64,000 nucleotides of DNA, taken from the NCBI GenBank assembly GCA_951406725.2, contig OX597816.1:2914001-2978000 (forward strand), read 5' to 3'. Shown here piece by piece: positions 9,440 through 49,309 of the stretch (within the stretch, counting starts at the first letter, position 1; every line of letters starts with the position of its first letter). Under the pieces are notes generated by a model. The model did no database searches, had not been told where the DNA came from, and saw only the letters and a list, made by a program, of their open reading frames with translations. The translations under genes and the position numbers were made by a program. The DNA comes from Octopus vulgaris. Taxonomy: Eukaryota.

Positions 9440-10300
9440 TGAGGACAACAACATGCAGTTTAATGCAGGGAAGTTCCAGCCCCTGCGCTACCGGCACACA
9501 AAGGTAAACGACATGCAGACTGGATACACTGGCCCGGCGAGAATTGTAATTCCTGAGTCAAAATCAGTGCGTGACCTGGGCATTGACATGAGCAATATTA
9601 CTAATTTGGTGATAAAATGCAGACGGCTAGCTGGATGGATTCTCCGAACTTTCAGAACAAGAGAGAAGGAGGCACTGATGGTCCTGTGGAAAACTTTCGT
9701 CCTCAGCCGCTTGGACTACTGCTCCCAACTATGGTCACCACACAATATAAAACTAACAGCAGAACTCGAAGCAATTCAAAGAAGCTACACAAAGATCGTC
9801 TCAATGCAACATATCAGCTACTGGGAAAGACTGAAAGTATTAAAACTCTTCTCCCTGGAGCGAAGACGGGAGAGATATGCAGTGATATACATCTGGAAAA
9901 TCCTGGAGGGTCTTGTTCCAAATTTTGGCATTCAGAGTTTCCCCAACCGTAGAACGGGGCGCCACTGCATGGTGCCAAAGATCCCAACATTACCATCATA
10001 ATACAGGACCAGATACTGCAACAGCTTGGGTTTCAGAGGACCACAGCTCTTCAATATCCTTCCTAAATCACTGAGAGACCTGCATGGTGTGGATGTGGGT
10101 TTCTTTAAAACTAAACTGGATCTCTTCTTGTCGGAGGTCCCAGATGAGCCTACCTCTCGGCAGGAAACACAGATTCGGGCAGCGGCATCGAACTCCCTTG
10201 TTGATCAAGTACCACATATCAGAGGTGGTTTCACATACTAGTGTAGCTCATTCAACGGTGGTGCCCCAGCATGGCCGCAGCCTTCGGGCTGGAACATTTT
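9440..10300 (+). mobile_element. 5'-truncated CR1-clade LINE (ORF2 C-terminus plus 3' UTR), pseudogenised
   Basis: Peptide MQFNAGKFQ...VRDLGIDMS...[10 protein letters not shown]...[10 protein letters not shown]...SLERRRERY...IWKIL...GPQLFNILP with a premature stop at ~10001. 3' UTR motif ggtgccccagcatggccgcag. Confidence 0.85.
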
Positions 10301-10321
10301 TTACGATTTTTTTAATATGTA

Positions 10322-10354
<33 letters not shown>

Positions 10355-10404
10355 TTACAACTAATGTAGGATAAAACTTTTTTCGAGAAAAAATGTATCA
10401 ATGG

Positions 10405-10952
10405 CTACACGAAGAAGATAGCCTCTGTGCAGCATATAAGCTACTGGGAAAGACTCAAGAGATTGAGACTCTATTCCTTAGAGCGTAGGCGAGAAAGATA
10501 TGCCATAATATACATCTGGAAGATCCTAGAAGGACTTGTCCCAAACTTTGGCATCGAGAGTTACACAAATGCCAGAACTGGGCGCCACTGCATAGTGCCA
10601 AGGACTCCAAATTTGCCATCAAGATGTAGGACAAGATACTGTGATAGCCTGGGCTTCCGAGGCCCACAGCTCTTCAATATCCTCCCGAAGAACCTAAGAG
10701 ACCTGCATGGGGTGGATGCAGATGTCTTTAAAATAAAACTGGATCTCTTCTTGTCAGGTGTCCCAGATGAACCAACTTCACGGCAGGAGGTACAGATGAG
10801 GGCAGCTGCATCGAACTCTCTCATGCACCAGATGGCATTTGCTAAAAAGCATTCGTGAAGTAAAATCATGTAGCAACACCAAATGGCGGTGCCCCAGCAT
10901 GGCCACAGTTTGTGAGCTGAAACTAAATAAAATAAAAAATAAAAATAAAATA
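10405..10952 (+). mobile_element. second 5'-truncated CR1-clade LINE, sister subfamily
   Basis: ORF 10427-10858 aligns by eye with 9804-10241 ([35 protein letters not shown]). It has the same 3' motif and an (AAAAT)n tail. Confidence 0.85.
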
Positions 10953-12167: not shown

Positions 12168-13235
12168 TACCTACTTCAGAAGCGAGGGAAACTAATACAA
12201 ATAGCCACAAAACACGAGCAAAACAAAAAAAAACTGTTTTCACTATTTAAGGAAGCTGACAAATACAAACAAGAAATCATATTACCTAACAAATATGAAG
12301 AAGAAACAACAAAAGCTATAAAACAAATGAAATCCAAACTAAAAATAGAACAGCAACGAACCATGATAAAACGATGGCAAGAAAAGCCCCTTCATGGCAA
12401 ATACTGGACTAAACTAAATGGAAAAGAAATAGACAAAGAAAAATCCCAGCAATGATTGAGAATCTCAGGACTCAAAGCAGAGACGGAGGGTTTTTTAATT
12501 GCAGCACAAGACCAAAGCCTCTCCACCAGAAATTACCAAAAACATGTAATGAAAAGAAATATAACAAGTAACTGCAGAATATGTGGAGATGGACAAGAAA
12601 CAATAAATCATATTATCTCTAGCTGCCCAGTCCTAGCTAAGAAGGAATATATTCACAGACATGACAGAGTTGGAACCTACATACATTGGAAGCTATGCCA
12701 ACATTATGGAATAACAGCAGAAAAAAGATGGTATAGGCACACACCAGAAAAGGTCACAGAAAACGAGAAAGCAACCATACTCTGGGATATGCCAATACAC
12801 ACAGATAGAAAAATTAAGGCCAACAGACCAGATATAGTTGTCAGAGATCATGAAGAAAAAAATGTTTTCTAATTGATGTATCAATACCGGCAGATGACAA
12901 CGTGTCTCTAAAAGAAATGGAGAAACTCTCAAAATACAAAGACCTGGAAATAGAGGTAACTCGAATGTGGAATCTAAAAACAGAAACAATTCCTATCATA
13001 GTAGGCGCATTAAGTATGATAAAAAAATATTCAGACAAATACATAACAAAAACACCAGGACTTACAAGTGTATATATCATACAGAAAATTGCACTACTGG
13101 GCACTGCACACATCATACGCAGAACACTTTCCATACAATAACCATCAGAGCATCACAGCCAACCACAGCACATACCCAAGGCACAGAGAGCTGCGCTCGG
13201 TAGTGAAGTGAAAGCACGCTATAAAAATAAAACTA

Positions 13236-14730: not shown

Positions 14731-14805
14731 AGTTGGTGTGAGTTGCATACCATTACTTCATTAATGAAAAAATAGATTGTAAACAAACAAAGACAGATAA
14801 AAAAA

Positions 14806-15552
14806 AACATGTATATTGAGGGTACAACCGGACGGGAGACAGACACAGAGGATCCCTAATTCTTCATCAGTTATCACTCAAAATGGTGATACCCAGTTTC
14901 GCACCATTAATGATAAGACTAAGGGGCTTCCCGTATTGGTGGTGCCTGCGAAAGCCGCAGGGGATGTCGGGCCTCAAGCAAACAAAACGACACAAAGTGG
15001 ACATAGGAAAGTTTAAAAAAAAATATAATTTAAGACGATGGACAAAGACGAAATAAATAGGAAACGAACAAAATACGGCCTTAGGGCCAAAAAGACAAGA
15101 ATGGTGGGTAACGCTTTGAAGAAATCTTAAAGGATATAGAAAACAGCAAATAGCAACACGGACCGGCCGCTCAGCTATTCGGTCGCAAAAAATTTCTCTG
15201 TCTTACTTATTTGCTGTTTTCTATATCCTTTAAGATTTCTTCAAAGCGTTACCCACCATTCTTGTCTTTTTGGCCCTAAGGCCGTATTTTGTTCGTTTCC
15301 TATTTATTTCGTTTTTACTCCATCGTCTTAAATTATATTTTTTTTTAAACTTTCGTATGTCCACTTTGTGTCGTTTTGTTTGCTTGAGGCCCGATATTCT
15401 CTGCGGCTTTCGCAGGTACCACCAATACGGGAAGCCCCTTAGTCTATCATTAATGGTGTAAAACGGAGTATCACCATTTTGATTGATAAATGATGAAGAA
15501 TTAAGTATCGTCTGCGTCTGTCTCCCACCCGGTCATACACTCAGTGTATGTT
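14806..15552. repeat. long inverted repeat, ~345-bp arms with a 55-nt spacer
   Basis: 14806-15152 is the reverse complement of 15208-15552. The inner ~105 bp look identical and the outer parts are diverged. Confidence 0.9.
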
Positions 15553-15603
15553 ATGTCGTTTGTTTATTTACGTTACATTTTTTCATTTCTTACATACATA
15601 CGT

Positions 15604-15705: not shown

Positions 15706-15922
15706 CATACATACTCATATATATATATATATATATATACACATACTCATATATATATATATATATATTTTTGGTGAAATAGAAAGATGAATAATCTTGT
15801 TGCAGATTAATCAAAAGTTTAACCGATACCTTGGTAGCAAAAATCACAGCAGAAGAAAGCACGGTTGGAGGTACAACTATATAGTGTTGCAACCGTGCGT
15901 TGGTGCTGATAATTGAATTTTA

Positions 15923-16423
<501 letters not shown>

Positions 16424-17730: not shown

Positions 17731-17861
17731 CAAAGTAAAGTTGTAAGGTACCGCACGAGTGAAAATATATATGAACGAAGGTTTGAAAATGCAAGTCTTT
17801 TAGGGATGTTTATAAACATCTCTAAAAGACCTTTACATTTTCAAACCTTCTTTCATATATA

Positions 17862-18741
17862 TACGAGGGAGTACCCCTCACCCCGCAAACCCCCCCAGAC
17901 TGTTGCAGAATTATTTTATTCCCTTAGTTTTACATGCTTACACTTTTATCGCCTTCAGCATATTCTCCATTTGAAGTAATGCATTGGTCCAGACACATTT
18001 TCCAATGTTCAGAGCAGTGCAGGAACTCTTGCAAAGTGATACCTTTTAACACCTCTGTCATTTTTTTCTTCACCTCTTCCACATCTGCAAATTACATAGA
18101 ACCAGCTTTCATCACCAGTGATGACCTTTGAAAAAAAAGGTCCGAATCAATTCCCAGCTGTTTTTTCATTTCACGACACGCATTCAGTTGTGACAGCTTT
18201 TGATCTTTGGTGAGGAAGCCAAGTACAAATTCCTCGCTCAAAATTCGTTGGCAGAAGCTCCAGGACACGCACCAGTCATATCAACAAGTTCGTAAATCGT
18301 TTGCTGACTCGTGAATTTCCATTATGTTTCTCATTCGTTCGGGAGGTCGAAGGTCGTTCTGAACGAGCTTCATCTTCAAGCGACAAGTGACCATTCCTAA
18401 AGCGTCGAAACCACTCGTAGACTTGTGTCTTGCTCAGGGCACAGTGTCCTTGTAAGCTGTTTGAAGCATGACAACTGTTTCAGCTGCTATTTTCCCCAGC
18501 AGAAAACAGAATTTCACAGAAGCACCTTTTACTCCCTGGTTTCAGCCATTGCAAAATTGGAGAAATAGGGGAGAAGCACTGCAAAACAAAGATGCACCAT
18601 GTGGCAGTACAGCCTCACTGGATGACGCTGGTCGGCAGACTGATGCCTGAGGGTCGCATCAAGTGGCTTCTAGCAGCAGAAGTCTGAGCTACAACAGGCT
18701 TGTCCCATAGAGAACGTTTCCGGTTAGTTTTGGGTACCCCA

Positions 18742-19048: not shown

Positions 19049-19344
19049 CTTATATAAAAGTATTTGTAGCGGTCTTGAAATTTTTATATTTGCATATTTC
19101 AATATTTTCTTTTCTCTCTCTTTTTCTTTCTTAATCAATTTATTTTGTCTGGAAAGTATTAATTTTCCAATAAGTAAAAAGTATATAAATAAATAAAAAT
19201 TTAAAAAAAACTCCAGTAAATTCGTATTGAGTTGCAGAAAATATATATATATTCAAATTAAAAGAAAAACCCATTATAATCGTGATTTTGTTTCTAAAAT
19301 GTCCTCTTTAATATTCTTTTCTCTTATTTTTTCCCTCTCTGCAG

Positions 19345-20138
19345 ACAACGAAGCTGCAGTTAATCCGAGCTTCCACCGTAGCTCGCATTGTGCTACCAGT
19401 GACGATGATGATGTTTTTGCAGAGCACATCGCCCCAGAGATAACGCAGACGACATCTCAACAGCCAAGAACTTTTCTCTCAAATCCAAGCGAGTTCGATT
19501 CCATGACAGAATCATTCGATTTAGAAACATCTCGAACGAGTAAGTCTAATCAATCTTCGGTGCCGCTTCATCCAAGAATGGACAACCATCCACCAGTGTC
19601 AGGCTCTTCAAACACTTCCTTATTTCTAACTGAACCAAACACACACGAAAGGACCATGTCAAACAACAACAACACTTTTAGAAGTAGTAGAAACGCTACT
19701 GGTGGAAACAATAATAATAATAATAATGATAATAATAATAATAGTGGTAATATTAGTCGAATTCCTGTAAATCGAGCTTCGGACAATGAACCCCTTCCCG
19801 AGTGCCATTCAAATGTTGAAAATTTTGGAAGAGATCATCGGCCTTTGATTCTAGCAGAGGCGGCGAGAATTCCTCGAACGATAGACACAGAAAATTCAAC
19901 AACAATGGAAGGTGTCGTCAACAGGGGGGAAATGGTAAAAGATCAAGCAGATCAAGATCGATACGTATCGATTGAAGAGAGTCAGACGATCGGAGGAGGG
20001 ATGTTGACTTCGTTAGTTTTGTTAACCTCTTTTACGTTCTGTGCCTTGTGCATTAAAATTAGCCCCGGAATATTCATGGTCTCCATTTTTATGGCGACTT
20101 TTATGTTTCAAGTGATTCGACAGCTGAACACAATGTAA
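19345..20138 (+). CDS. terminal coding exon of an unidentified host gene; Ser/Thr/Asn-rich low-complexity region with C-terminal hydrophobic membrane segment(s)
   Basis: A polypyrimidine tract and acceptor (ttttccctctctgcag|ACAAC) precede ~264 open codons of non-repeat sequence to TAA at 20136-38. C-terminus MLTSLVLLTSFTFCALCIKISPGIFMVSIFMATFMFQVIRQLNTM. Upstream exons were not identified. Confidence 0.7.
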
Positions 20139-28584: not shown

Positions 28585-29516
28585 ACAATAAAACTTTGCA
28601 TGGTTTGATATAAGTTAGTAAAAAAAAAACACTAAAAAAAAAAAAACCAAGCAAATAAATTATGAATGAAATCGTAATTACTAATTATATTTTATACTAA
28701 TTAATATTTTCGCTCACCTTTTTTCTATTTCAGTGTTAAAATGTCTAAACTACCATTAATCATTAATGTTTACTTTTTAATTATACAATTAACCACAGAT
28801 GAACATTCTAATTAATAAAAATATTTCTTATGCAATTTTCGGTAATAAAGTTTTTTTATTTTTGACTTTAACCCTTCATAAGAATATTTTGGTCGTTAAC
28901 GAAGTATTTTTGGCATTATTTAACGGTTCCTTATTTAGCAGCTCATAGAAAATCATGATAGATGATCCTCTGTCGGTTGACGACGAGGAGCGTTAAGTTC
29001 TTCGACCAATTGAGCTTATCTATTCGTTGAACCAACGTGTAAGTGGCTGAATACTCCTCAGAAATGTGTGCCCCATAACAGAATCCTCAGGTGTAATCAC
29101 CGTGAGACATTGTGTGCGAAGGTTGCACCCCGTTTGAAATACAGGAAAAGTGCGTCCATCACGCTTCCAAATGGTTTCCGTCAACTCATTTCAGCTCAGA
29201 AGATTTGGGTCGACTTGAAGTTGTGGTAAAAAAAAAAAATATTTTTTAAAGTAAAGAAAACAGAAACATAAAAAAACCCCTAGTGAACCTAAGATGTGAT
29301 GCAGCGGAATCGAACCCAAGTTCCCGTGATTGTGAAGAAGACCGCCCCCCCCTCCATGTCCGTGTCCGTCGTATAAACATGCACACATACGTGTAAATTT
29401 AAGTTCAATTTCACACGAATGCTGAGATAAGCAACCATTTGTATCCGCTACGGATTAATACGATGCGCAAAATTAATCCATATGTGTGTGTACACGTGCA
29501 TACATACATGTATACG

Positions 29517-29568
<52 letters not shown>

Positions 29569-29569
<1 letters not shown>

Positions 29570-29781
29570 TTTATTAATAAAGCTGCAAAGACATCCCAAA
29601 AACTGTAACTCAGAGTTTCACTTTCAAGTTCGTCGGACAGTTTTGGTTTAGAACGAAACTCTGAGCAACAGTTTTTGTGATGTCTTTGTAAGTTTTATTA
29701 ATAAAGCTTATTACTCTACCTCCGGTATTCGAGTACTATTTTTAACCACCTTGTTTCATATTTATGTACTCACTCTGGTAT
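29569..29781. mobile_element. fold-back hammerhead element, decayed relative of 35055-35286
   Basis: Inverted repeat 29569-29706. Minus 29603-29640 reads ctgt-CCGACGA-acttgaaagt-GAAA-ctctgag-UU-acag. The 3' tail ttactctacc..ggtattcgagtact..ccaccttgtttca is shared with 35213-35286. Confidence 0.7.
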
Positions 29782-29824: not shown

Positions 29825-29922
29825 AGTTCAGCAAAATTTAGATTCAGATGAATATGGTGCTTAAGTTAAAGGCACCAGAATTTGGTATGGTATCCATATA
29901 ATTCAAATGGGTGATTATTTTG

Positions 29923-29972
<50 letters not shown>

Positions 29973-30143
29973 CACACACATATACATATATGTGTGTGTG
30001 CATATATATATGTATGTATATATATATCTTTTCAGATGAATATGGTACTTAAGTTAAAGGCACCAGAATTTGGTATGGTATTATCCATATAAATCAAATG
30101 GGGTGATTATAATCAAAATAAGCAACAAGGATATCCAAGGTAG

Positions 30144-35019: not shown

Positions 35020-35055
<36 letters not shown>

Positions 35056-35087
35056 TTTATTTTAAGCAGCAGAAAATTCAACAAAAC

Positions 35088-35125
35088 CTGTTACTCTGAG
35101 TTTCTCGTTGCCGTTCATCAGACAG
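35088..35125 (-). ncRNA. type I minimal hammerhead ribozyme (mirror copy)
   Basis: Exact reverse complement of 35142-35179. Predicted cleavage is between 35092 and 35091. Confidence 0.8.
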
Positions 35126-35141
35126 TTTTTTCTAACAAAAA

Positions 35142-35179
35142 CTGTCTGATGAACGGCAACGAGAAACTCAGAGTAACAG
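35142..35179 (+). ncRNA. type I minimal hammerhead ribozyme
   Basis: ctgt-CUGAUGA(35146-52)-a cg GCAA cg a-GAAA(35163-66)-cuc a gag-UA(35174-75)-acag. Stem I extends aaaaactgt/acagatttt. Predicted cleavage is after A35175. Confidence 0.8.
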
Positions 35180-35281
35180 ATTTTGTTGAATTTTCTGGTG
35201 CTTAAAATAAAGCATATTACTCTACCACTGGTATTTGAGTACTCTTTTTTCCACCTTGTTTCACATTTATGTGTTTACTCC

Positions 35282-35326
<45 letters not shown>

Positions 35327-35547: not shown

Positions 35548-36928
35548 AGTGGCGGCGAGTTTATTCCAAGCTTACGTTGGACGTTAACATTTTCTTTTGA
35601 TACAAAATCAACGGAAAATTAGTTGAGCTGAAAGACTTATTAGCGTCCGTGGTGCAACAACAGCAATTACAACAATACCAACAGTTGCTGGAATTAATGT
35701 TGGAAGTCCAAAAATACTTTCAAGTTCGTTCTCGCCAGACGGCGTAGCAAACGCAATGGCAGAAATTAATTATAATCCAGAAGAAGGTATTACTTTTTCT
35801 GCATATTTCCGAAGATATGAAGAAGTCTTGAAAGAGGAATGCAAAAACTGGACGGACAATGGAAAGGTACGACTACTTTTAAGAAAGTTATCCCCAACCG
35901 AATACGGAAAATATCGTAACTACATTCTGTGAGCCATGTGAAATTTGTTTCGATGAAACAAATTCTTATCGAAATTTTCAGTGTGAGAAGATCCCTGTTC
36001 AGTTCTCATGGAAAGTGTTTGAATTTACTAAAAGACGATGAATTCTCGAAACAGTCAACACACATAAGCTACTGTATAAGTTACAACAGGTTGCCATCTG
36101 GTTTAAAAGTCACACCAGCGATTCTTCAACAGATTATGGACAAATGTTTGCTGACTCTGAAATCGAAATTCTATATATGGATGATATATAAAGCGAATCC
36201 AGGGATCAACACGCCGAGCAGGTAAAATATATATTTGAAAAAAATTAAGGATTACGGCTTTACGTTGAGTGAAGAAAAGTGAATATTGTTTTATTGGAAA
36301 TAAGATATTTAGGACAAATTATTGATAGAAATGGACGACGAGCTGACCCGTGGAGGCAGACGCCATTAAAAATGCGCCTCCTTCGACTAATATAGCATTT
36401 TTTGGACTGACAAATTATAACCAAAATTATATTCCAAATATGCATACGGTTAGGGCTGTAAAAAGATGTTAAATGGAATTGATCAGAAAATTGTCAAAAG
36501 GTGTTTGACGAAATTTTAAAAAATATCTGATTTGTCGTTAGCTCAGTTCGATCCTGCATCGGAAATTGTTGTAGCTTCAGACGCTTCTGAATGTGGTATA
36601 GGATCAATAATGCTACGTAAATATAAAGATGGTAACGTGAAGGCGGCGGTTCATGCCTCATATTCTCTGAAATAAGCAGAAAAAAAATTATAGTTAAATC
36701 GAGAAAGAAGCTCTAGCGATAATTTTTGCCATGAAAAATTTCACAGATTTTTGCACGGTAGAAGTTATCGGTTACAGACTGATCACCGACAGTTATAATC
36801 GATATTTGGGTCAAAAAAAGGAATTCCTACCTGTACTGCAAATATGTTACAATATTGGGTTACAATATCATCAAACTACGATTTCAAGATGAAGCATATT
36901 CCATTCAAGAAATAAGGCCATGCCGATT
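35548..36928 (+). mobile_element. decayed Ty3/gypsy LTR retrotransposon (gag, RT, RNase H remnants)
   Basis: PBS-like tggcggcgag at ~35550, gag-like PEEGITFSAYFRRYEE...KVRLLLRKL, RT YNRLPSGLKVTPAILQQIMD, RNase H VVASDASECGIG...IEKEALAIIFA...LQTDHR. Many frameshifts. Interrupted by a SINE at ~36929. Confidence 0.8.
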
Positions 36929-37674: not shown

Positions 37675-40320
37675 TTTCATTTATTTGCCACAAGTGCGAA
37701 GGATGAGGGTGACAATACAGAGACAGACATAAAGTGTGGGGGTTTACATATAATAAAATGATAAACGAAAAAGTATACACGGCATCCACTGGAAAAGAAG
37801 GGACATATGGATAGCATGTAAAGGTAAAAAAAAGGTGGGTGGTGATAGAGATGTGGCCCTCCTAATGCAGGAAGGCCTCTAGGGGTAATCGAGAAACCCC
37901 ACTGTCCGAGATTTCCCTGAAACCCCAATAACACGTGCCCTCCCCAATTCCTTCTCTCCAACTCACAGGCCTACACTTAGAGAGGTGCAGTCCGCTCTTG
38001 CCATTTTCGCAACTTTCACCCACCTTTCAATAAACTCACTCGAGGACAGCACTTCCCTCTCCACTCTCAATTTCCTTTTCAAGTCAAAGAGAGCTCTACC
38101 AAAGAGGAATTTACCTGTCCTCATGCCTTTCAGTCTTGTCCACCAAACAACCTCTTACGTTACAGCCACCAGACAAAGGAAACACTGGCTTTCCTGTCCG
38201 ATTGAAGGAGGGCGGCGATGCAATCACCACTACAGACTCAGCCGACAGACGGATCCGTTTCACATGTGACAGCAGCTGTTCAACATGACTCCAAAAGTCA
38301 GCAATGCCCAGATACTGAACGAGGGCATGCAGAACGGTTTCTTCACTCTGCGCGCACCTCGGACAAGTCCGTCTGACAGCACATCCGTGCCTGTATAGTT
38401 TATCTCAAACTGGTAGTGCCCACCAGTAGCACTGCCTGGAGAAGGACATCTGGAAATTATCCATGATTGTTCCCGACCGATAAGTCCCCCGGAACAGACT
38501 AGCCAGTTCGTTCTCATCGGAGCCCAGAGTCTCCCCGAGAACGTCGTCGCACTTCCCCGCCACTAATCCTCTATAAATTTCTAAAGTGGAACATTCACCG
38601 ATCCCATCGCCCGGCTGGTAGAGGGTTGTGAGCGCTTGACAGCATTCTGGGTGCCACGCATCCATTCCAGATCTTTTCTTTACCCAGAACTGCGGCTCCG
38701 TCAAGGAGACGAGCTGCGGGAAGACGAGCCTCACAGACGGAGGCCACACACGCTCACCGTCCAGAAATCGTTGCCGGCTGCGTAACCTAAGCGCGTGTCT
38801 GCGCATTAGGAACCACGGCATACTTAATCCGCCACTTAAAGGATGCTGACAATAGACTGACCGCCTGACCATTGGAACGCCTCCTTTCCACAAGAATTTT
38901 AATAAAGAGACGCTCCAACCTGGTCACGTAGTAATCGGGACAAGGCCCGACGGTCAGGCGATAAATGAAAATGGAGGCGATGTAAGCATTCGCCACTTCT
39001 GCCCGACCTTTCAGGGACAGTTTTCTTTCAGCCCATTTCTGGGTAAGACTGGCCACTCTGTTCGCCACCTCGTCCCAGTTATCAATCTGAGCACTTTAAC
39101 TGTTGCGTCGGTCCAGCATCCGACGACGCCATCCGATGGCATCATCCCGCCTCTCCAGGAGCCCAACTGCAAACCAACCGATTTATCGACGTTGGTTTTT
39201 ATCCCCTACAACCGACTCGTATTCCTTTAGGCCGGTGCCGACCGTCTCCACTTCGGACGTGTCCGACACCATGACGGTGACATCATCCGTGTATGCTGAC
39301 ACTGGCCTTCTTGGTTCCAGTTCGAAAGGGATGCCCCTTAGCTGTTCCAGCTCCCGCAAGTGGCTCGAGTACCAAAACATATAGAAGAGGCGACAGCGGG
39401 CAGCCCTGACGAGCCGTGAATGCGATGCCAAGCGGCTCCGATTCGTGGCCGTTTACTTTGACTACTGAACAGCGATCCAGCTTCTGAAAACGGGTTCGAA
39501 ACCGCCTGCTTTCAGGACAGCTTCCAAGTAGCAATGATCGACCCTATCGAATGCTTTTGATTGATCCAAATTGATCAGAGCACCCACGAAGCCAGATGTG
39601 GTCCCAGCCCTCTCAATGATGTATCGCATAAGCTGGAGGTCGTCGTGGGTAAACCTACTCGGGATTGCACACGCTTGTGCTTTTCCGACCAGGTTACCGA
39701 CGACAAGCGCCAACCTTTTCGCTAACACCATGGCCAAAATCTTAAACTCTGTTTAGCAGAGTTATGGACCGAAAATTCTCTAGTGTGTCCTCATTGTTGG
39801 CGTCCTTCCTCAACAGTGTCACCACACTTTTGCTAACAGCGCTAAGAATTCTCCCGTTCTGTTGCCAGTTGCAGTAGACGTCTGCTAAGAGGTCGCCAAC
39901 CAAATCTAGCGTGAATACATAGAAAATTCGTAGGGCAGACCATCCAAACCGGGCGATCTGCGACTTGTGCAATCGCTCATCGCTTCCAAAATTTCAGTGG
40001 CTGTTATCGGCCTTTCACATAACCTCGCATCAGCTGTCGGGAACCGCAGCAAGCCGTCTAGGTACGAATTAAAATCCAGTACCGTCGTCGACCCATCGCC
40101 CTTTCCAAACAGTCGCGTGAAGTGCTTCTGAAAAGCCGCACACATCTGCTCGGAGTCGCGTACCGCGCCCATCCTGATCCGTCAAAGACCTGATCATGGG
40201 TTTGTTTCCACGTCGCGTCTCCAGCGTTCGAACCAGCTTTACTTCCTTCTTGCCTGAGCGCACAGGCCTTAGTTCTAACAACGCAACCTTCGTGTTTCGC
40301 TACGACGGGCACTGGCTTTC
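37675..40320 (-). mobile_element. Tx1-like (L1 group) LINE, degenerate RT region and 3' end
   Basis: Motifs SPGLDGLPYEF, FRSITLLN, VLAKRL, INLDQSKAFDRVDH, RQGCPLSPLL, AYTDDVTV, RKLSLKGRAEVAN across frameshifts. Confidence 0.85.
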
Positions 40321-46972: not shown

Positions 46973-47117
46973 TAGGGGCAGGGTCTATGATGTTTATTAC
47001 CTTATTCTTTTTTCATTTAGCTTTGTTGAAATATATTAGTCAAATGCGTATGTAATATTTCGTTTTTGGATTTGGTTTGCAAGATTCTTTATGCGAGTTC
47101 GTGTGTTGAAGCATATT

Positions 47118-47387
47118 CTGTTGTGTCTGGGGAGAGTCATTCTCTTTTGGTGCCTTATAATTTAACACACACACTGGTAAAATTTCCACTTAAAAAATTT
47201 TTTTTTAATTTCCCAAAAAATTTTCGTTGCGCCTTGCAACCTTTTTAATAGTTTTCAATAGTCAAAACTATTGAAAAAGTTTCAAAACGCAACGAAAATT
47301 TTAGGACAACAAAAAGTGGAAATTTTACCGGTGAGTGTGTTAAATTATAAGGCACAAAAAGAAAATGACTCTCCCCAGACACAACAG
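47118..47387. repeat. imperfect fold-back (~130-bp arms) with a decayed hammerhead-like core
   Basis: The arms flank an 8-nt loop (47256-63). They read cta-ttgaaaa/ttaaaaa-g-gttgc aaggc gcaac-GAAA-atttt. Confidence 0.75.
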
Positions 47388-47436
47388 CGTATATAATATT
47401 CCTCGTTAATCTTTTATTTCACATGTATATCATGTT

Positions 47437-48422: not shown

Positions 48423-48595
48423 GAACACAGAAAATAGAAAAAGGTTTAGTGATCAATCAAGGCGAATGCCAATATGAAAATAAATATATATGGATGCTGT
48501 GTGATGTGTGATGGATGCCGTGTGATGGATGCAGTATGATGTGTGTCATGTGATGTGTGACGTGTGATGGGTGCTGTGTGTTGTGTTGTGTAAAT

Positions 48596-48737
48596 ATCAA
48601 AACAGTTCGATTCAGACCCCTTGGTACTCTGAGTTTGAAGTGTGGCTAGTCTTCGTCCCCCATGGCCCCAATGGCCTAAGACTAACCACGCGCTTGAAAC
48701 CCAGAGTACCAAGGAGTCTGAATCAAACTAGTTTGAT
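48596..48737. repeat. fold-back with decayed GAAACYCAGAGUA hammerhead half
   Basis: Inverted arms ~60 bp. gaaacccagagta at 48696-48708 matches the stem III/cleavage motif of the 35-kb element. Confidence 0.65.
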
Positions 48738-48798
48738 CTATACATGTAACTCCCAATAAATGTGTTGAGTGCCTTCCTTTCGTTTGTCCACACACCCT

Positions 48799-48878
<80 letters not shown>

Positions 48879-48879
48879 A

Positions 48880-49083
48880 AGGAAGTTAAAAGTTATGGCC
48901 GGTCATGGAGTGACCATTCGTTTTGCATCCATAAAGCGATTAGCAATAAAGGTGGCTCATCAAACTCAAATGGCTGGATGCGCCTTCGGCCATTTGTGTC
49001 TGATGAATCACCTATACTACTACGCATTTTATAGGTGCGAATCCAATGGTCACTCTATGACCAGCCATAACTTTGAACTTCCT
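48880..49083. mobile_element. fold-back element with a hammerhead on each arm (both mutated)
   Basis: Plus arm: gtgt-CUGAUGA(49000-06)-at cacctata...tataggtg c-GAAU-ccaatg-GUC(49049-51)-actc. Minus arm: gagt-UUGAUGA-gc cacct...gc-AAAA-cgaatg-GUC-actc. The arm consensus is a canonical hammerhead. Confidence 0.75.
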
Positions 49084-49309
49084 AAAAATATTTTACTGGT
49101 CTAATGGCGTGCTTCTTCGGATATATGATCTACTGACGATATATATTCATATATAAAGGGGCAGACCCAAGGGTGGGGTTGCTGAGAGGCACATTCCCCC
49201 TCAAGAAAAGAAGTGCGCCCTTCTAAATAATATTATTACACCCTTTTCTCCAGGAATTGTATTTTCTTCTGACCTTGTGCCCTCTCTTTGAAAGCTTCCT
49301 CAGACCATG

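What the first reader, a model, noticed from the sequence alone, without database searches (positions are those of the whole stretch)
35055..35286. Cleanest paired-hammerhead hairpin: identical ribozymes head-to-head
Seen: 76-bp arms and a 6-nt loop. Each strand reads ctgt-CUGAUGA-acgGCAAcga-GAAA-cucagag-UA-acag, with a GNRA-capped 2-bp stem II and a near-palindromic stem III (actcagagt) of the kind that favours dimeric folding. Both arms have A.A instead of a pair at the base of stem II, whereas the relative at 29.6 kb has A-U. Inference: in a read-through transcript the antisense arm would sequester the ribozyme, giving a built-in off state or an siRNA/ADAR substrate. Transcripts starting near the loop could still cleave.
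Basis: partly seen in the sequence, partly recalled or inferred. Interest (0 to 1): 0.75.

Follow-up and report, generated by a model that had tools for sequence, protein, structure and literature searches.

The report
Palindromic Penelope-type stump, octopus genome
This real 158-base palindrome in an octopus genome carries a hammerhead ribozyme motif on each strand, and is most likely an ordinary stump of a Penelope-like jumping gene whose mirror half was made during insertion, not a designed on/off switch.

Summary
In detail: 76-bp arms (74/76 paired), a 6-nt loop, an identical minimal type I hammerhead motif on each strand, a 73-nt tail on one arm only, (TA)n on both flanks. The host is an octopus. 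The sequence is a high-copy repeat: 11,391 contigs laid in one run. Other copies turn round at other points: the 29.6-kb relative, and 14 different joints in public contigs. Many copies end where the left arm ends. Head-to-head inverted copy, one-sided tail, hammerhead and TA target are the published insertion anatomy of Penelope-like elements (PMC3846280, PMC8557442, PMC4209133, PMC11167929). Seven more head-to-head insertions lie in the same 64 kb; one, at 15.9 kb, is a cleaner hammerhead pair (197/199). Any transcript holds only one sense ribozyme, so this predicted dimer-type hammerhead has no partner in cis. The 'off state' follows from base pairing but shows no sign of selection. Not shown: a linked RT/GIY-YIG gene, transcription, cleavage. 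Verdict: new member of a known kind, low interest. One lead: such stumps may supply much of the octopus's ADAR substrate.

The parts
35055..35130 (-). Inverted, 5'-truncated copy of the element's 3' end; ends at the family's short 3' end, no tail
   Evidence: many public contigs pass into (TA)n at the matching place 35217 (table 7)
35092..35121 (-). Minimal type I hammerhead motif, left arm (core to H17)
35131..35136 (.). Loop / inversion centre. With the family's letters at 35131 and 35135, 35130-35137 is a self-complementary 8-mer, so the hairpin was likely a spacer-free palindrome
   Evidence: table 3; shares
35137..35212 (+). Direct, 5'-truncated copy of the element's 3' end (pLTR-like, inferred)
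35146..35175 (+). Minimal type I hammerhead motif, right arm; predicted cut after 35175; A.A at 10.1/11.1; near-palindromic stem III
35213..35285 (+). One-sided 73-nt tail, shared with the 29.6-kb copy (85% over 72 nt)
35027..35054 (.). (TA)n target, left flank
35284..35322 (.). (TA)n target, right flank
29569..29781 (+). Older relative with the same anatomy (70% identical) but another inversion point: whole hammerhead on the minus arm, plus arm begins inside the ribozyme

Best explanation
The palindrome is likely a short insertion of a Penelope-like retroelement's hammerhead-bearing 3' end, whose mirror half would have been made during integration into a (TA)n tract rather than inherited as a regulatory hairpin. 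Shown: two truncated copies head to head, a tail on one only, TA flanks, a high-copy family, two alternative 3' ends, variable turning points. Inferred from published work on these elements: an element-encoded GIY-YIG endonuclease/reverse transcriptase nicks the TA tract and starts copying at either of two RNA sites (tail end, short end); copying stops just upstream of the hammerhead; the second arm arises by fold-back priming or by annealing of two cDNA ends at a short self-complementary site. The hammerhead is predicted to act only as a dimer in the parent's tandem transcript. Here the two motifs lie on opposite strands, so the copy is probably inert. If transcribed through, it would be a passive double-stranded RNA substrate.
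For: Anatomy. 11,391 / 5,666 / 414 / 3,075 contigs laid in 4 of 4 runs. Loose ends into (TA)n at 35217 in 74, 25, 3 and 32 contigs, while other contigs run through the tail. The 29.6-kb copy turns at another point. 14 distinct left-to-right-arm joints among the rows shown. Summed depth at the centre is about 1-2% of that at 35105 in runs X1 and X8 (table 3). Family letters make the centre self-complementary: G at 35135 in 91-100%, G at 35131 in 44-99% of depth. Seven other head-to-head segments next to (TA)n in the window. The same core, stem I and stem III occur as non-inverted motifs in L001 and L002, with compensatory changes in stem II. Literature: inverted pLTR, optional tail and palindromes at head-to-head junctions (PMC3846280); inverted 5'-truncated copy, tail, TA targets (PMC8557442); minimal hammerheads in pLTRs, pairs on opposite strands 100-700 bp apart, no monomer cleavage (PMC4209133); both strands nicked and extended, two RT start sites bounding the tail (PMC11167929).
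Against: No RT/GIY-YIG gene was linked to this family: no genome is held, 150 of 274 ORF stretches gave no GIY-YIG match, viral and prokaryote scans found nothing, and L001/L002 gave no such link. The tail is 73 nt against the 30-40 bp described. The joints rest on 1-2 contigs each, with 20-27 letters on the short side at 85% likeness, which the tool flags as error-prone; only 15 of 48 joints were shown. One of 32 pieces shown (X2 record 10, 11 differences, no gap) bridges the same centre, and centre depth is 13-43% of that at 35105 in X2 and 20-25% in X7, so this turning point may recur. The 29.6-kb copy's upstream letters resemble the present loop, so the palindrome-at-centre reading is not certain.
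Confidence: 0.8

Rival explanations
1. A short non-autonomous Penelope parasite (retrozyme-like monomer of about 170 nt) rather than truncations of a coding element; the palindrome is still made at insertion.
For: Few contigs show sequence upstream of the loop, and their loose ends agree for only about 12 letters (table 7). L002 is a solo motif followed within about 100 nt by a TA-rich end. Animal retrozymes are proposed to derive from PLE pLTRs (10.64898/2026.07.22.740005). This differs from the best reading only in the template.
Against: No head-to-tail tandem of the unit in the window. Short contigs and edge effects make the upstream drop in depth uninterpretable.
Confidence: 0.1
2. One reading: a selected hairpin that holds the ribozyme off in read-through RNA, or feeds siRNA or ADAR pathways on purpose.
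For: The hairpin is predicted to dominate the fold. Octopus shows very high hyper-editing and many long double-stranded loci (PMC5625713). One public contig bridges the same centre.
Against: Turning points vary and can cut through the ribozyme (29.6 kb). The same layout occurs without a recognisable hammerhead (15.0, 17.8, 47.1 kb). A single dimer-type motif is predicted to be near inactive already, so there is little to switch off. The site lies about 6.3 kb past the last coding exon found for the neighbouring gene.
Confidence: 0.04
3. A foldback or MITE-type DNA transposon, or a fixed palindromic repeat, that happens to hold a hammerhead-like string.
For: Near-perfect inverted arms and TA flanks, as Tc1/mariner MITEs have (recalled).
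Against: The arms abut, with a tail outside one arm; junctions vary; the family has two 3' ends; the hammerhead pattern is kept in non-inverted relatives, with change confined to tolerated positions.
Confidence: 0.04
4. Assembly or library artefact (fold-back chimera).
For: No public contig spans the whole locus with its flanks (the TA flanks were skipped).
Against: The arms differ at 2 positions and only one has a tail; older, diverged palindromes of the same type lie nearby; public contigs cross inversion joints.
Confidence: 0.02

Closest known systems
Insertion architecture of endonuclease-bearing Penelope-like elements (Arkhipova et al. 2013, PMC3846280; Craig et al. 2021, PMC8557442)
   Same: Head-to-head inverted 5'-truncated copy, tail on one end only, hammerhead near the 3' end, short palindrome at the junction (inferred here), (TA)n target.
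   Different: No ORF between the arms; the whole insertion is 231 nt; the tail is 73 nt rather than 30-40; the parent element and clade are not identified.
Minimal type I hammerheads of metazoan PLEs (Cervera and de la Pena 2014, PMC4209133)
   Same: Full core, 4-bp stem I, palindromic stem III suited to dimer folding, many family variants; pairs on opposite strands were already reported.
   Different: Stem II is only 2-3 bp and lacks the G10.1-C11.1 pair and the extra nucleotide after position 9; stem III is a 9-nt near-palindrome. This stem III string was not found in the supplements searched (file 1 of PMC4209133 could not be searched and its figure text is garbled).
PAc Poseidon element of Anolis (Frangieh et al. 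2024, PMC11167929)
   Same: Two alternative 3' ends bounding a tail; AT-rich targets; hammerhead dispensable for insertion in vitro.
   Different: Shown biochemically there, only inferred here; different family.
Non-LTR retrozymes of animals (Cervera and de la Pena 2020, PMC7229834; bioRxiv 10.64898/2026.07.22.740005)
   Same: Short non-coding unit with a type I hammerhead, thought to depend on PLEs.
   Different: Retrozymes are head-to-tail tandems that yield circular RNA; this is a head-to-head stump with one sense ribozyme per strand.
Palindromic Harbinger repeats of Xenopus as ADAR substrates (Porath et al. 2017, PMC5625713)
   Same: A self-folding repeat would be an editing substrate without a partner repeat.
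   Different: Harbinger has a palindromic consensus; here the palindrome appears to be rebuilt at each insertion, and editing was not shown.

Membership tests
Penelope-like element insertion (EN+) | Inverted 5'-truncated copy adjoining head to head | tested here: met
Penelope-like element insertion (EN+) | Optional tail on one end only (two alternative 3' ends) | tested here: met
   73-nt tail on the right arm in both window copies; other copies end at 35217 in (TA)n. Longer than the 30-40 bp described.
Penelope-like element insertion (EN+) | Hammerhead motif in the terminal repeat | tested here: met
Penelope-like element insertion (EN+) | Insertion into (TA)n or AT-rich target | tested here: met
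Penelope-like element insertion (EN+) | Variable 5' truncation and inversion points | tested here: met
   29.6-kb copy; 14 distinct joints, each weakly supported
Penelope-like element insertion (EN+) | Palindrome at the inverted junction | tested here: inconclusive
   Self-complementary only with the family's letters at 35131 and 35135
Penelope-like element insertion (EN+) | Linked ORF with telomerase-like RT and GIY-YIG endonuclease | tested here: inconclusive
   No genome held; none found
Penelope-like element insertion (EN+) | Target-site duplication | not testable with these tools
   Hidden in (TA)n
Type I hammerhead ribozyme (minimal, dimer type) | Core CUGANGA / GAAA / UH with A15.1-U16.1 | tested here: met
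Type I hammerhead ribozyme (minimal, dimer type) | Stem I of 4 bp or more; palindromic stem III allowing a dimer | tested here: met
Type I hammerhead ribozyme (minimal, dimer type) | Paired 10.1-11.1 (usually G-C) closing stem II | tested here: not met
   A.A in both arms; A-U at 29.6 kb; G-U in L001 and L002
Type I hammerhead ribozyme (minimal, dimer type) | Match to an Rfam hammerhead model | tested here: not met
Type I hammerhead ribozyme (minimal, dimer type) | Self-cleavage | not testable with these tools
   Needs an in vitro assay; contigs cannot show RNA ends
Non-LTR retrozyme | Head-to-tail tandem units each with a hammerhead | tested here: not met
   Single head-to-head pair; no direct repeats of the unit
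MITE / foldback DNA transposon | Fixed terminal inverted repeats bounding the whole element | tested here: not met
   Tail outside one arm, variable centre
microRNA precursor | Family match at gathering score with a conserved mature arm | tested here: not met
   Only sub-threshold matches to many unrelated hairpin families, on both strands

The most novel reading that the evidence does not exclude
Penelope-type integration keeps seeding the octopus genome with ready-made, partner-free palindromes (8 in this 64 kb, 2,269 bp, 3.5%), and these are a main source of the long double-stranded RNA behind the octopus's exceptional ADAR hyper-editing; the buried hammerheads would be silenced as a side effect.
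Probability: 0.15. Interest if true: 0.55.

Novelty: new member of a known kind. Interest (0 to 1): 0.2.

Why it matters
As it stands, this is one more example of a described insertion pattern, in a family I did not find described for octopus (searches; Repbase and Dfam were not searchable). Its use is as raw material. Thousands of such junctions in one genome could tell fold-back priming from two-cDNA joining, a step of Penelope transposition that the papers read call unresolved. They could also test whether these palindromes account for the octopus's unusually high load of editable double-stranded RNA, which PMC5625713 noted without assigning it to repeat classes.

Tried and rejected
Own genome not held, so no assembly-wide copy count or junction survey. 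Rfam: no hammerhead match; miRNA matches are generic hairpin scores. Pfam on the 150 longest of 274 low-complexity-filtered ORF stretches: no GIY-YIG; weak RVT_1 at 39465-39752 and zf-RVT at 12456-12869 are not tied to the element. Hammerhead patterns: 0 matches in viral contigs and prokaryote genomes; 2 in metagenome contigs. No RNA holder is on record; run X7 is RNA only by guess and shows the same listed letter changes as the DNA runs, so no editing was seen and none is excluded. The fall in depth towards the 5' side was not read as piled-up truncation, because the same fall occurs at the 3' edge. Clustering of breakpoints at the cut site: forward starts within 6 nt in 5 of 14 joints (p 0.011), 3 of 11 (p 0.10) without the three joints at 35086 that may stem from this copy's mismatch at 35087; inverted ends 7 of 14 (p 0.07); rows were pre-selected, so not claimed. 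Left out of the 14: two joints inside the right arm, two opposite-strand joints, two backward joints. Searches of earlier findings by sequence and place gave nothing; one search returned only phage hammerheads. The hairpin-like Rfam signal at 33.35-33.53 kb is (GA)n/(TC)n microsatellite. Supplements: file 1 of PMC4209133 was not searchable and bioRxiv supplements were not seen; either could hold this hammerhead family.

Full report
OBSERVATION. The stretch 35055-35212 is an inverted repeat with 76-bp arms, two mismatches and a 6-nt loop. It is followed by 73 nt that have no mirror copy, and (TA)n lies on both sides. The fold of 35055-35286 is far beyond chance (z -20.65, 0 of 200 shuffles). 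Each strand holds the same minimal type I hammerhead motif: full core, 4-bp stem I, a stem II of A.A, C-G and G-C with a GCAA loop, a 9-nt near-palindromic stem III, and a predicted cut after 35175. A descriptor that allows the A.A mismatch found 4 sites in the window (these two, the 29.6-kb relative, one at 30226-30149) against 0.11 per shuffle over 100 shuffles. Rfam has no hammerhead match.

HOST AND SETTING. An exon at 19338-19538 is 97% identical over 67 residues to a protein named telokin-like in Octopus vulgaris, so the window is octopus. The last coding exon of that isoform appears to end near 28.76 kb (a weak 11-residue match behind a splice-acceptor-like site). The finding lies about 6.3 kb further on, just before a decayed gag-like stretch (DUF7083). 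Nothing shows that it is transcribed.

A HIGH-COPY FAMILY WITH MOVING TURNING POINTS. No genome is held. Laying four public runs at 85% likeness placed 11,391, 5,666, 414 and 3,075 contigs on the stretch. These are not copy numbers, but they show a large, varied family. The relative at 29569-29781 has the same plan, but its plus arm begins inside the ribozyme while the minus arm keeps the whole motif. Of 48 joints, 15 were shown; 11 of these and 3 more from table 5c link the left arm to the right arm, and all 14 differ. Each rests on 1-2 contigs with short sides, so singly they are weak. Depth at the centre is about 1-2% of that at 35105 in X1 and X8, 13-43% in X2 and 20-25% in X7. One of 32 pieces shown (X2 record 10) bridges the same centre with 11 differences, so the point may recur, but it is not the family's fixed form. 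Contigs pass into (TA)n at 35217 in 74, 25, 3 and 32 cases while others run through the tail: the family has two 3' ends, and the two arms here use one each.

THE CENTRE. At 35135 the family letter is G in 91-100% of depth, and at 35131 G in 44-99%. With these letters 35130-35137 is self-complementary, so the insertion was likely a spacer-free palindrome that later took two changes at its tip (p about 0.003 at the arms' rate). That central asymmetry stabilises long palindromes is recalled, not tested. The 29.6-kb copy's upstream letters resemble the present loop, which leaves some doubt.

THE RIBOZYME. Across five copies (two arms, 29.6 kb, L001, L002) stems I and III are constant. Change falls on N7, H17 (never G), the unpaired centre of stem III, position 4, and stem II, where two pairs change on both sides and the loops are GCAA, UGAA or UUCG. 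This is how a real hammerhead family varies; five rows are few. L001 and L002 come from AT-rich metagenome contigs and show no inverted partner, though L001 ends 16 nt past the motif. Among contigs laid on the left arm, position 11.1 is U in 21-42%, G in 30-44% and otherwise mostly A in 17-49%. Mirror rows for the right arm were not listed, so A may be commoner. The A.A mismatch is therefore a family variant under loose constraint. The hammerhead fold scores -0.4 kcal/mol as a monomer and -12.4 as a dimer, against -118.9 for the hairpin. Because the two motifs are on opposite strands, each RNA carries one sense motif, preceded by its complement; no dimer can form in cis.

COMPARISON WITH KNOWN SYSTEMS. 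PMC3846280 (passages) describes an adjacent inverted pLTR, an optional tail on one of them, and an abundance of head-to-head repeats with palindromes at the junction, read as self-priming. PMC8557442 (passages and a supplement search) gives the same plan and (TA)n targeting, and lists octopus Naiads, which lack canonical hammerheads. PMC4209133 (text parts 1-2 of 4, supplement 2 part 1 of 3) describes minimal dimer-type hammerheads in pLTRs, pairs on opposite strands 100-700 bp apart, no monomer cleavage and weak dimer cleavage. PMC11167929 (parts 1-2 of 4) shows both strands nicked and extended, two RT start sites that bound the tail, and a hammerhead not needed for insertion. PMC3088659 (passages) notes natural 2-bp stems II, a U-U mismatch at 10.1/11.1 and the weakened U4C variant. 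PMC8969392, PMC7229834, PMC5625713 and PMC9989829 were read as passages, the retrozyme preprint as part 1 of 5. The one defining feature not shown is the link to an RT/GIY-YIG gene, so the element works like a Penelope-like insertion and is very likely one; its clade is unknown.

GENERALITY. Of 41 segments between TA runs, 11 hold an inverted repeat. Eight segments picked by eye were examined; all show head-to-head arms with extra sequence on one or both sides, together 2,269 bp or 3.5% of the window. The pair at 15925-16324 (197/199) has an exact core on both strands and a long stem II. Three (15.0, 17.8, 47.1 kb) show no recognisable hammerhead. Earlier notes of this scan report the same anatomy in other animal genomes; these are unchecked and are not counted as support.

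VERDICT. Observation confirmed; interpretation partly supported. Best reading: integration by-product of a Penelope-like element, 0.8. Short non-autonomous template 0.1, selected switch 0.04, DNA transposon 0.04, artefact 0.02. New member of a known kind; interest 0.2. The boldest reading left open is that these palindromes feed octopus hyper-editing (0.15; interest 0.55 if true). PMC5625713 reports the excess of double-stranded loci but left octopus out of its repeat analysis, and searches listed no paper whose title or abstract start makes this link.

Noticed in passing
window 15769-16324: Cleaner head-to-head pair of another family: 197/199 arms, exact hammerhead core on both strands (16187 +, 16062 -), long stem II, weak stem I, 156-nt one-sided extension, (TA)n flanks.
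   Followed up: partly
window 14763-15587, 17765-17862, 47113-47392: Head-to-head inverted repeats beside (TA)n (356/388, 44/47, 112/126) with no recognisable hammerhead.
   Followed up: partly
window 48589-48744 and 48875-49088: Older head-to-head pairs with decayed hammerhead-like cores; the first has a stem-III-like string close to that of this family.
   Followed up: partly
window 30226-30149 (-) and 48418 (-): Solo hammerhead-like motifs of other families; a 51-nt stretch near the first is repeated at 29843-29893 and 30031-30081 between TA runs.
   Followed up: no
window 35120 (family-wide): The U4C core variant makes up 16-59% of depth at this place in the four runs and is present at 29.6 kb, unusually common for a change reported to weaken cleavage.
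   Followed up: partly
L001 5468-5521 and L002 1509-1380 (-): The same hammerhead subtype in AT-rich, animal-like metagenome contigs, with a different downstream sequence: the subtype is not confined to octopus.
   Followed up: partly
window 19338-20138 and about 28733-28759: Exons of a telokin-like gene on the + strand. Its Ig-domain exons are not in the window, so the 15-18 kb palindromes likely lie in an intron, and the 29.6-kb copy may lie in or near the 3' UTR.
   Followed up: partly
window 35087/35180: No variant row is listed at this arm mismatch, which could mean both letters are family variants and the two arms came from two templates.
   Followed up: no
window 35696-35929, 39465-39752, 12456-12869, 9441-10855: Decayed retroelement coding remnants (DUF7083, weak RVT_1, zf-RVT; LINE-like frames recognised from recall) not tied to the finding.
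   Followed up: no
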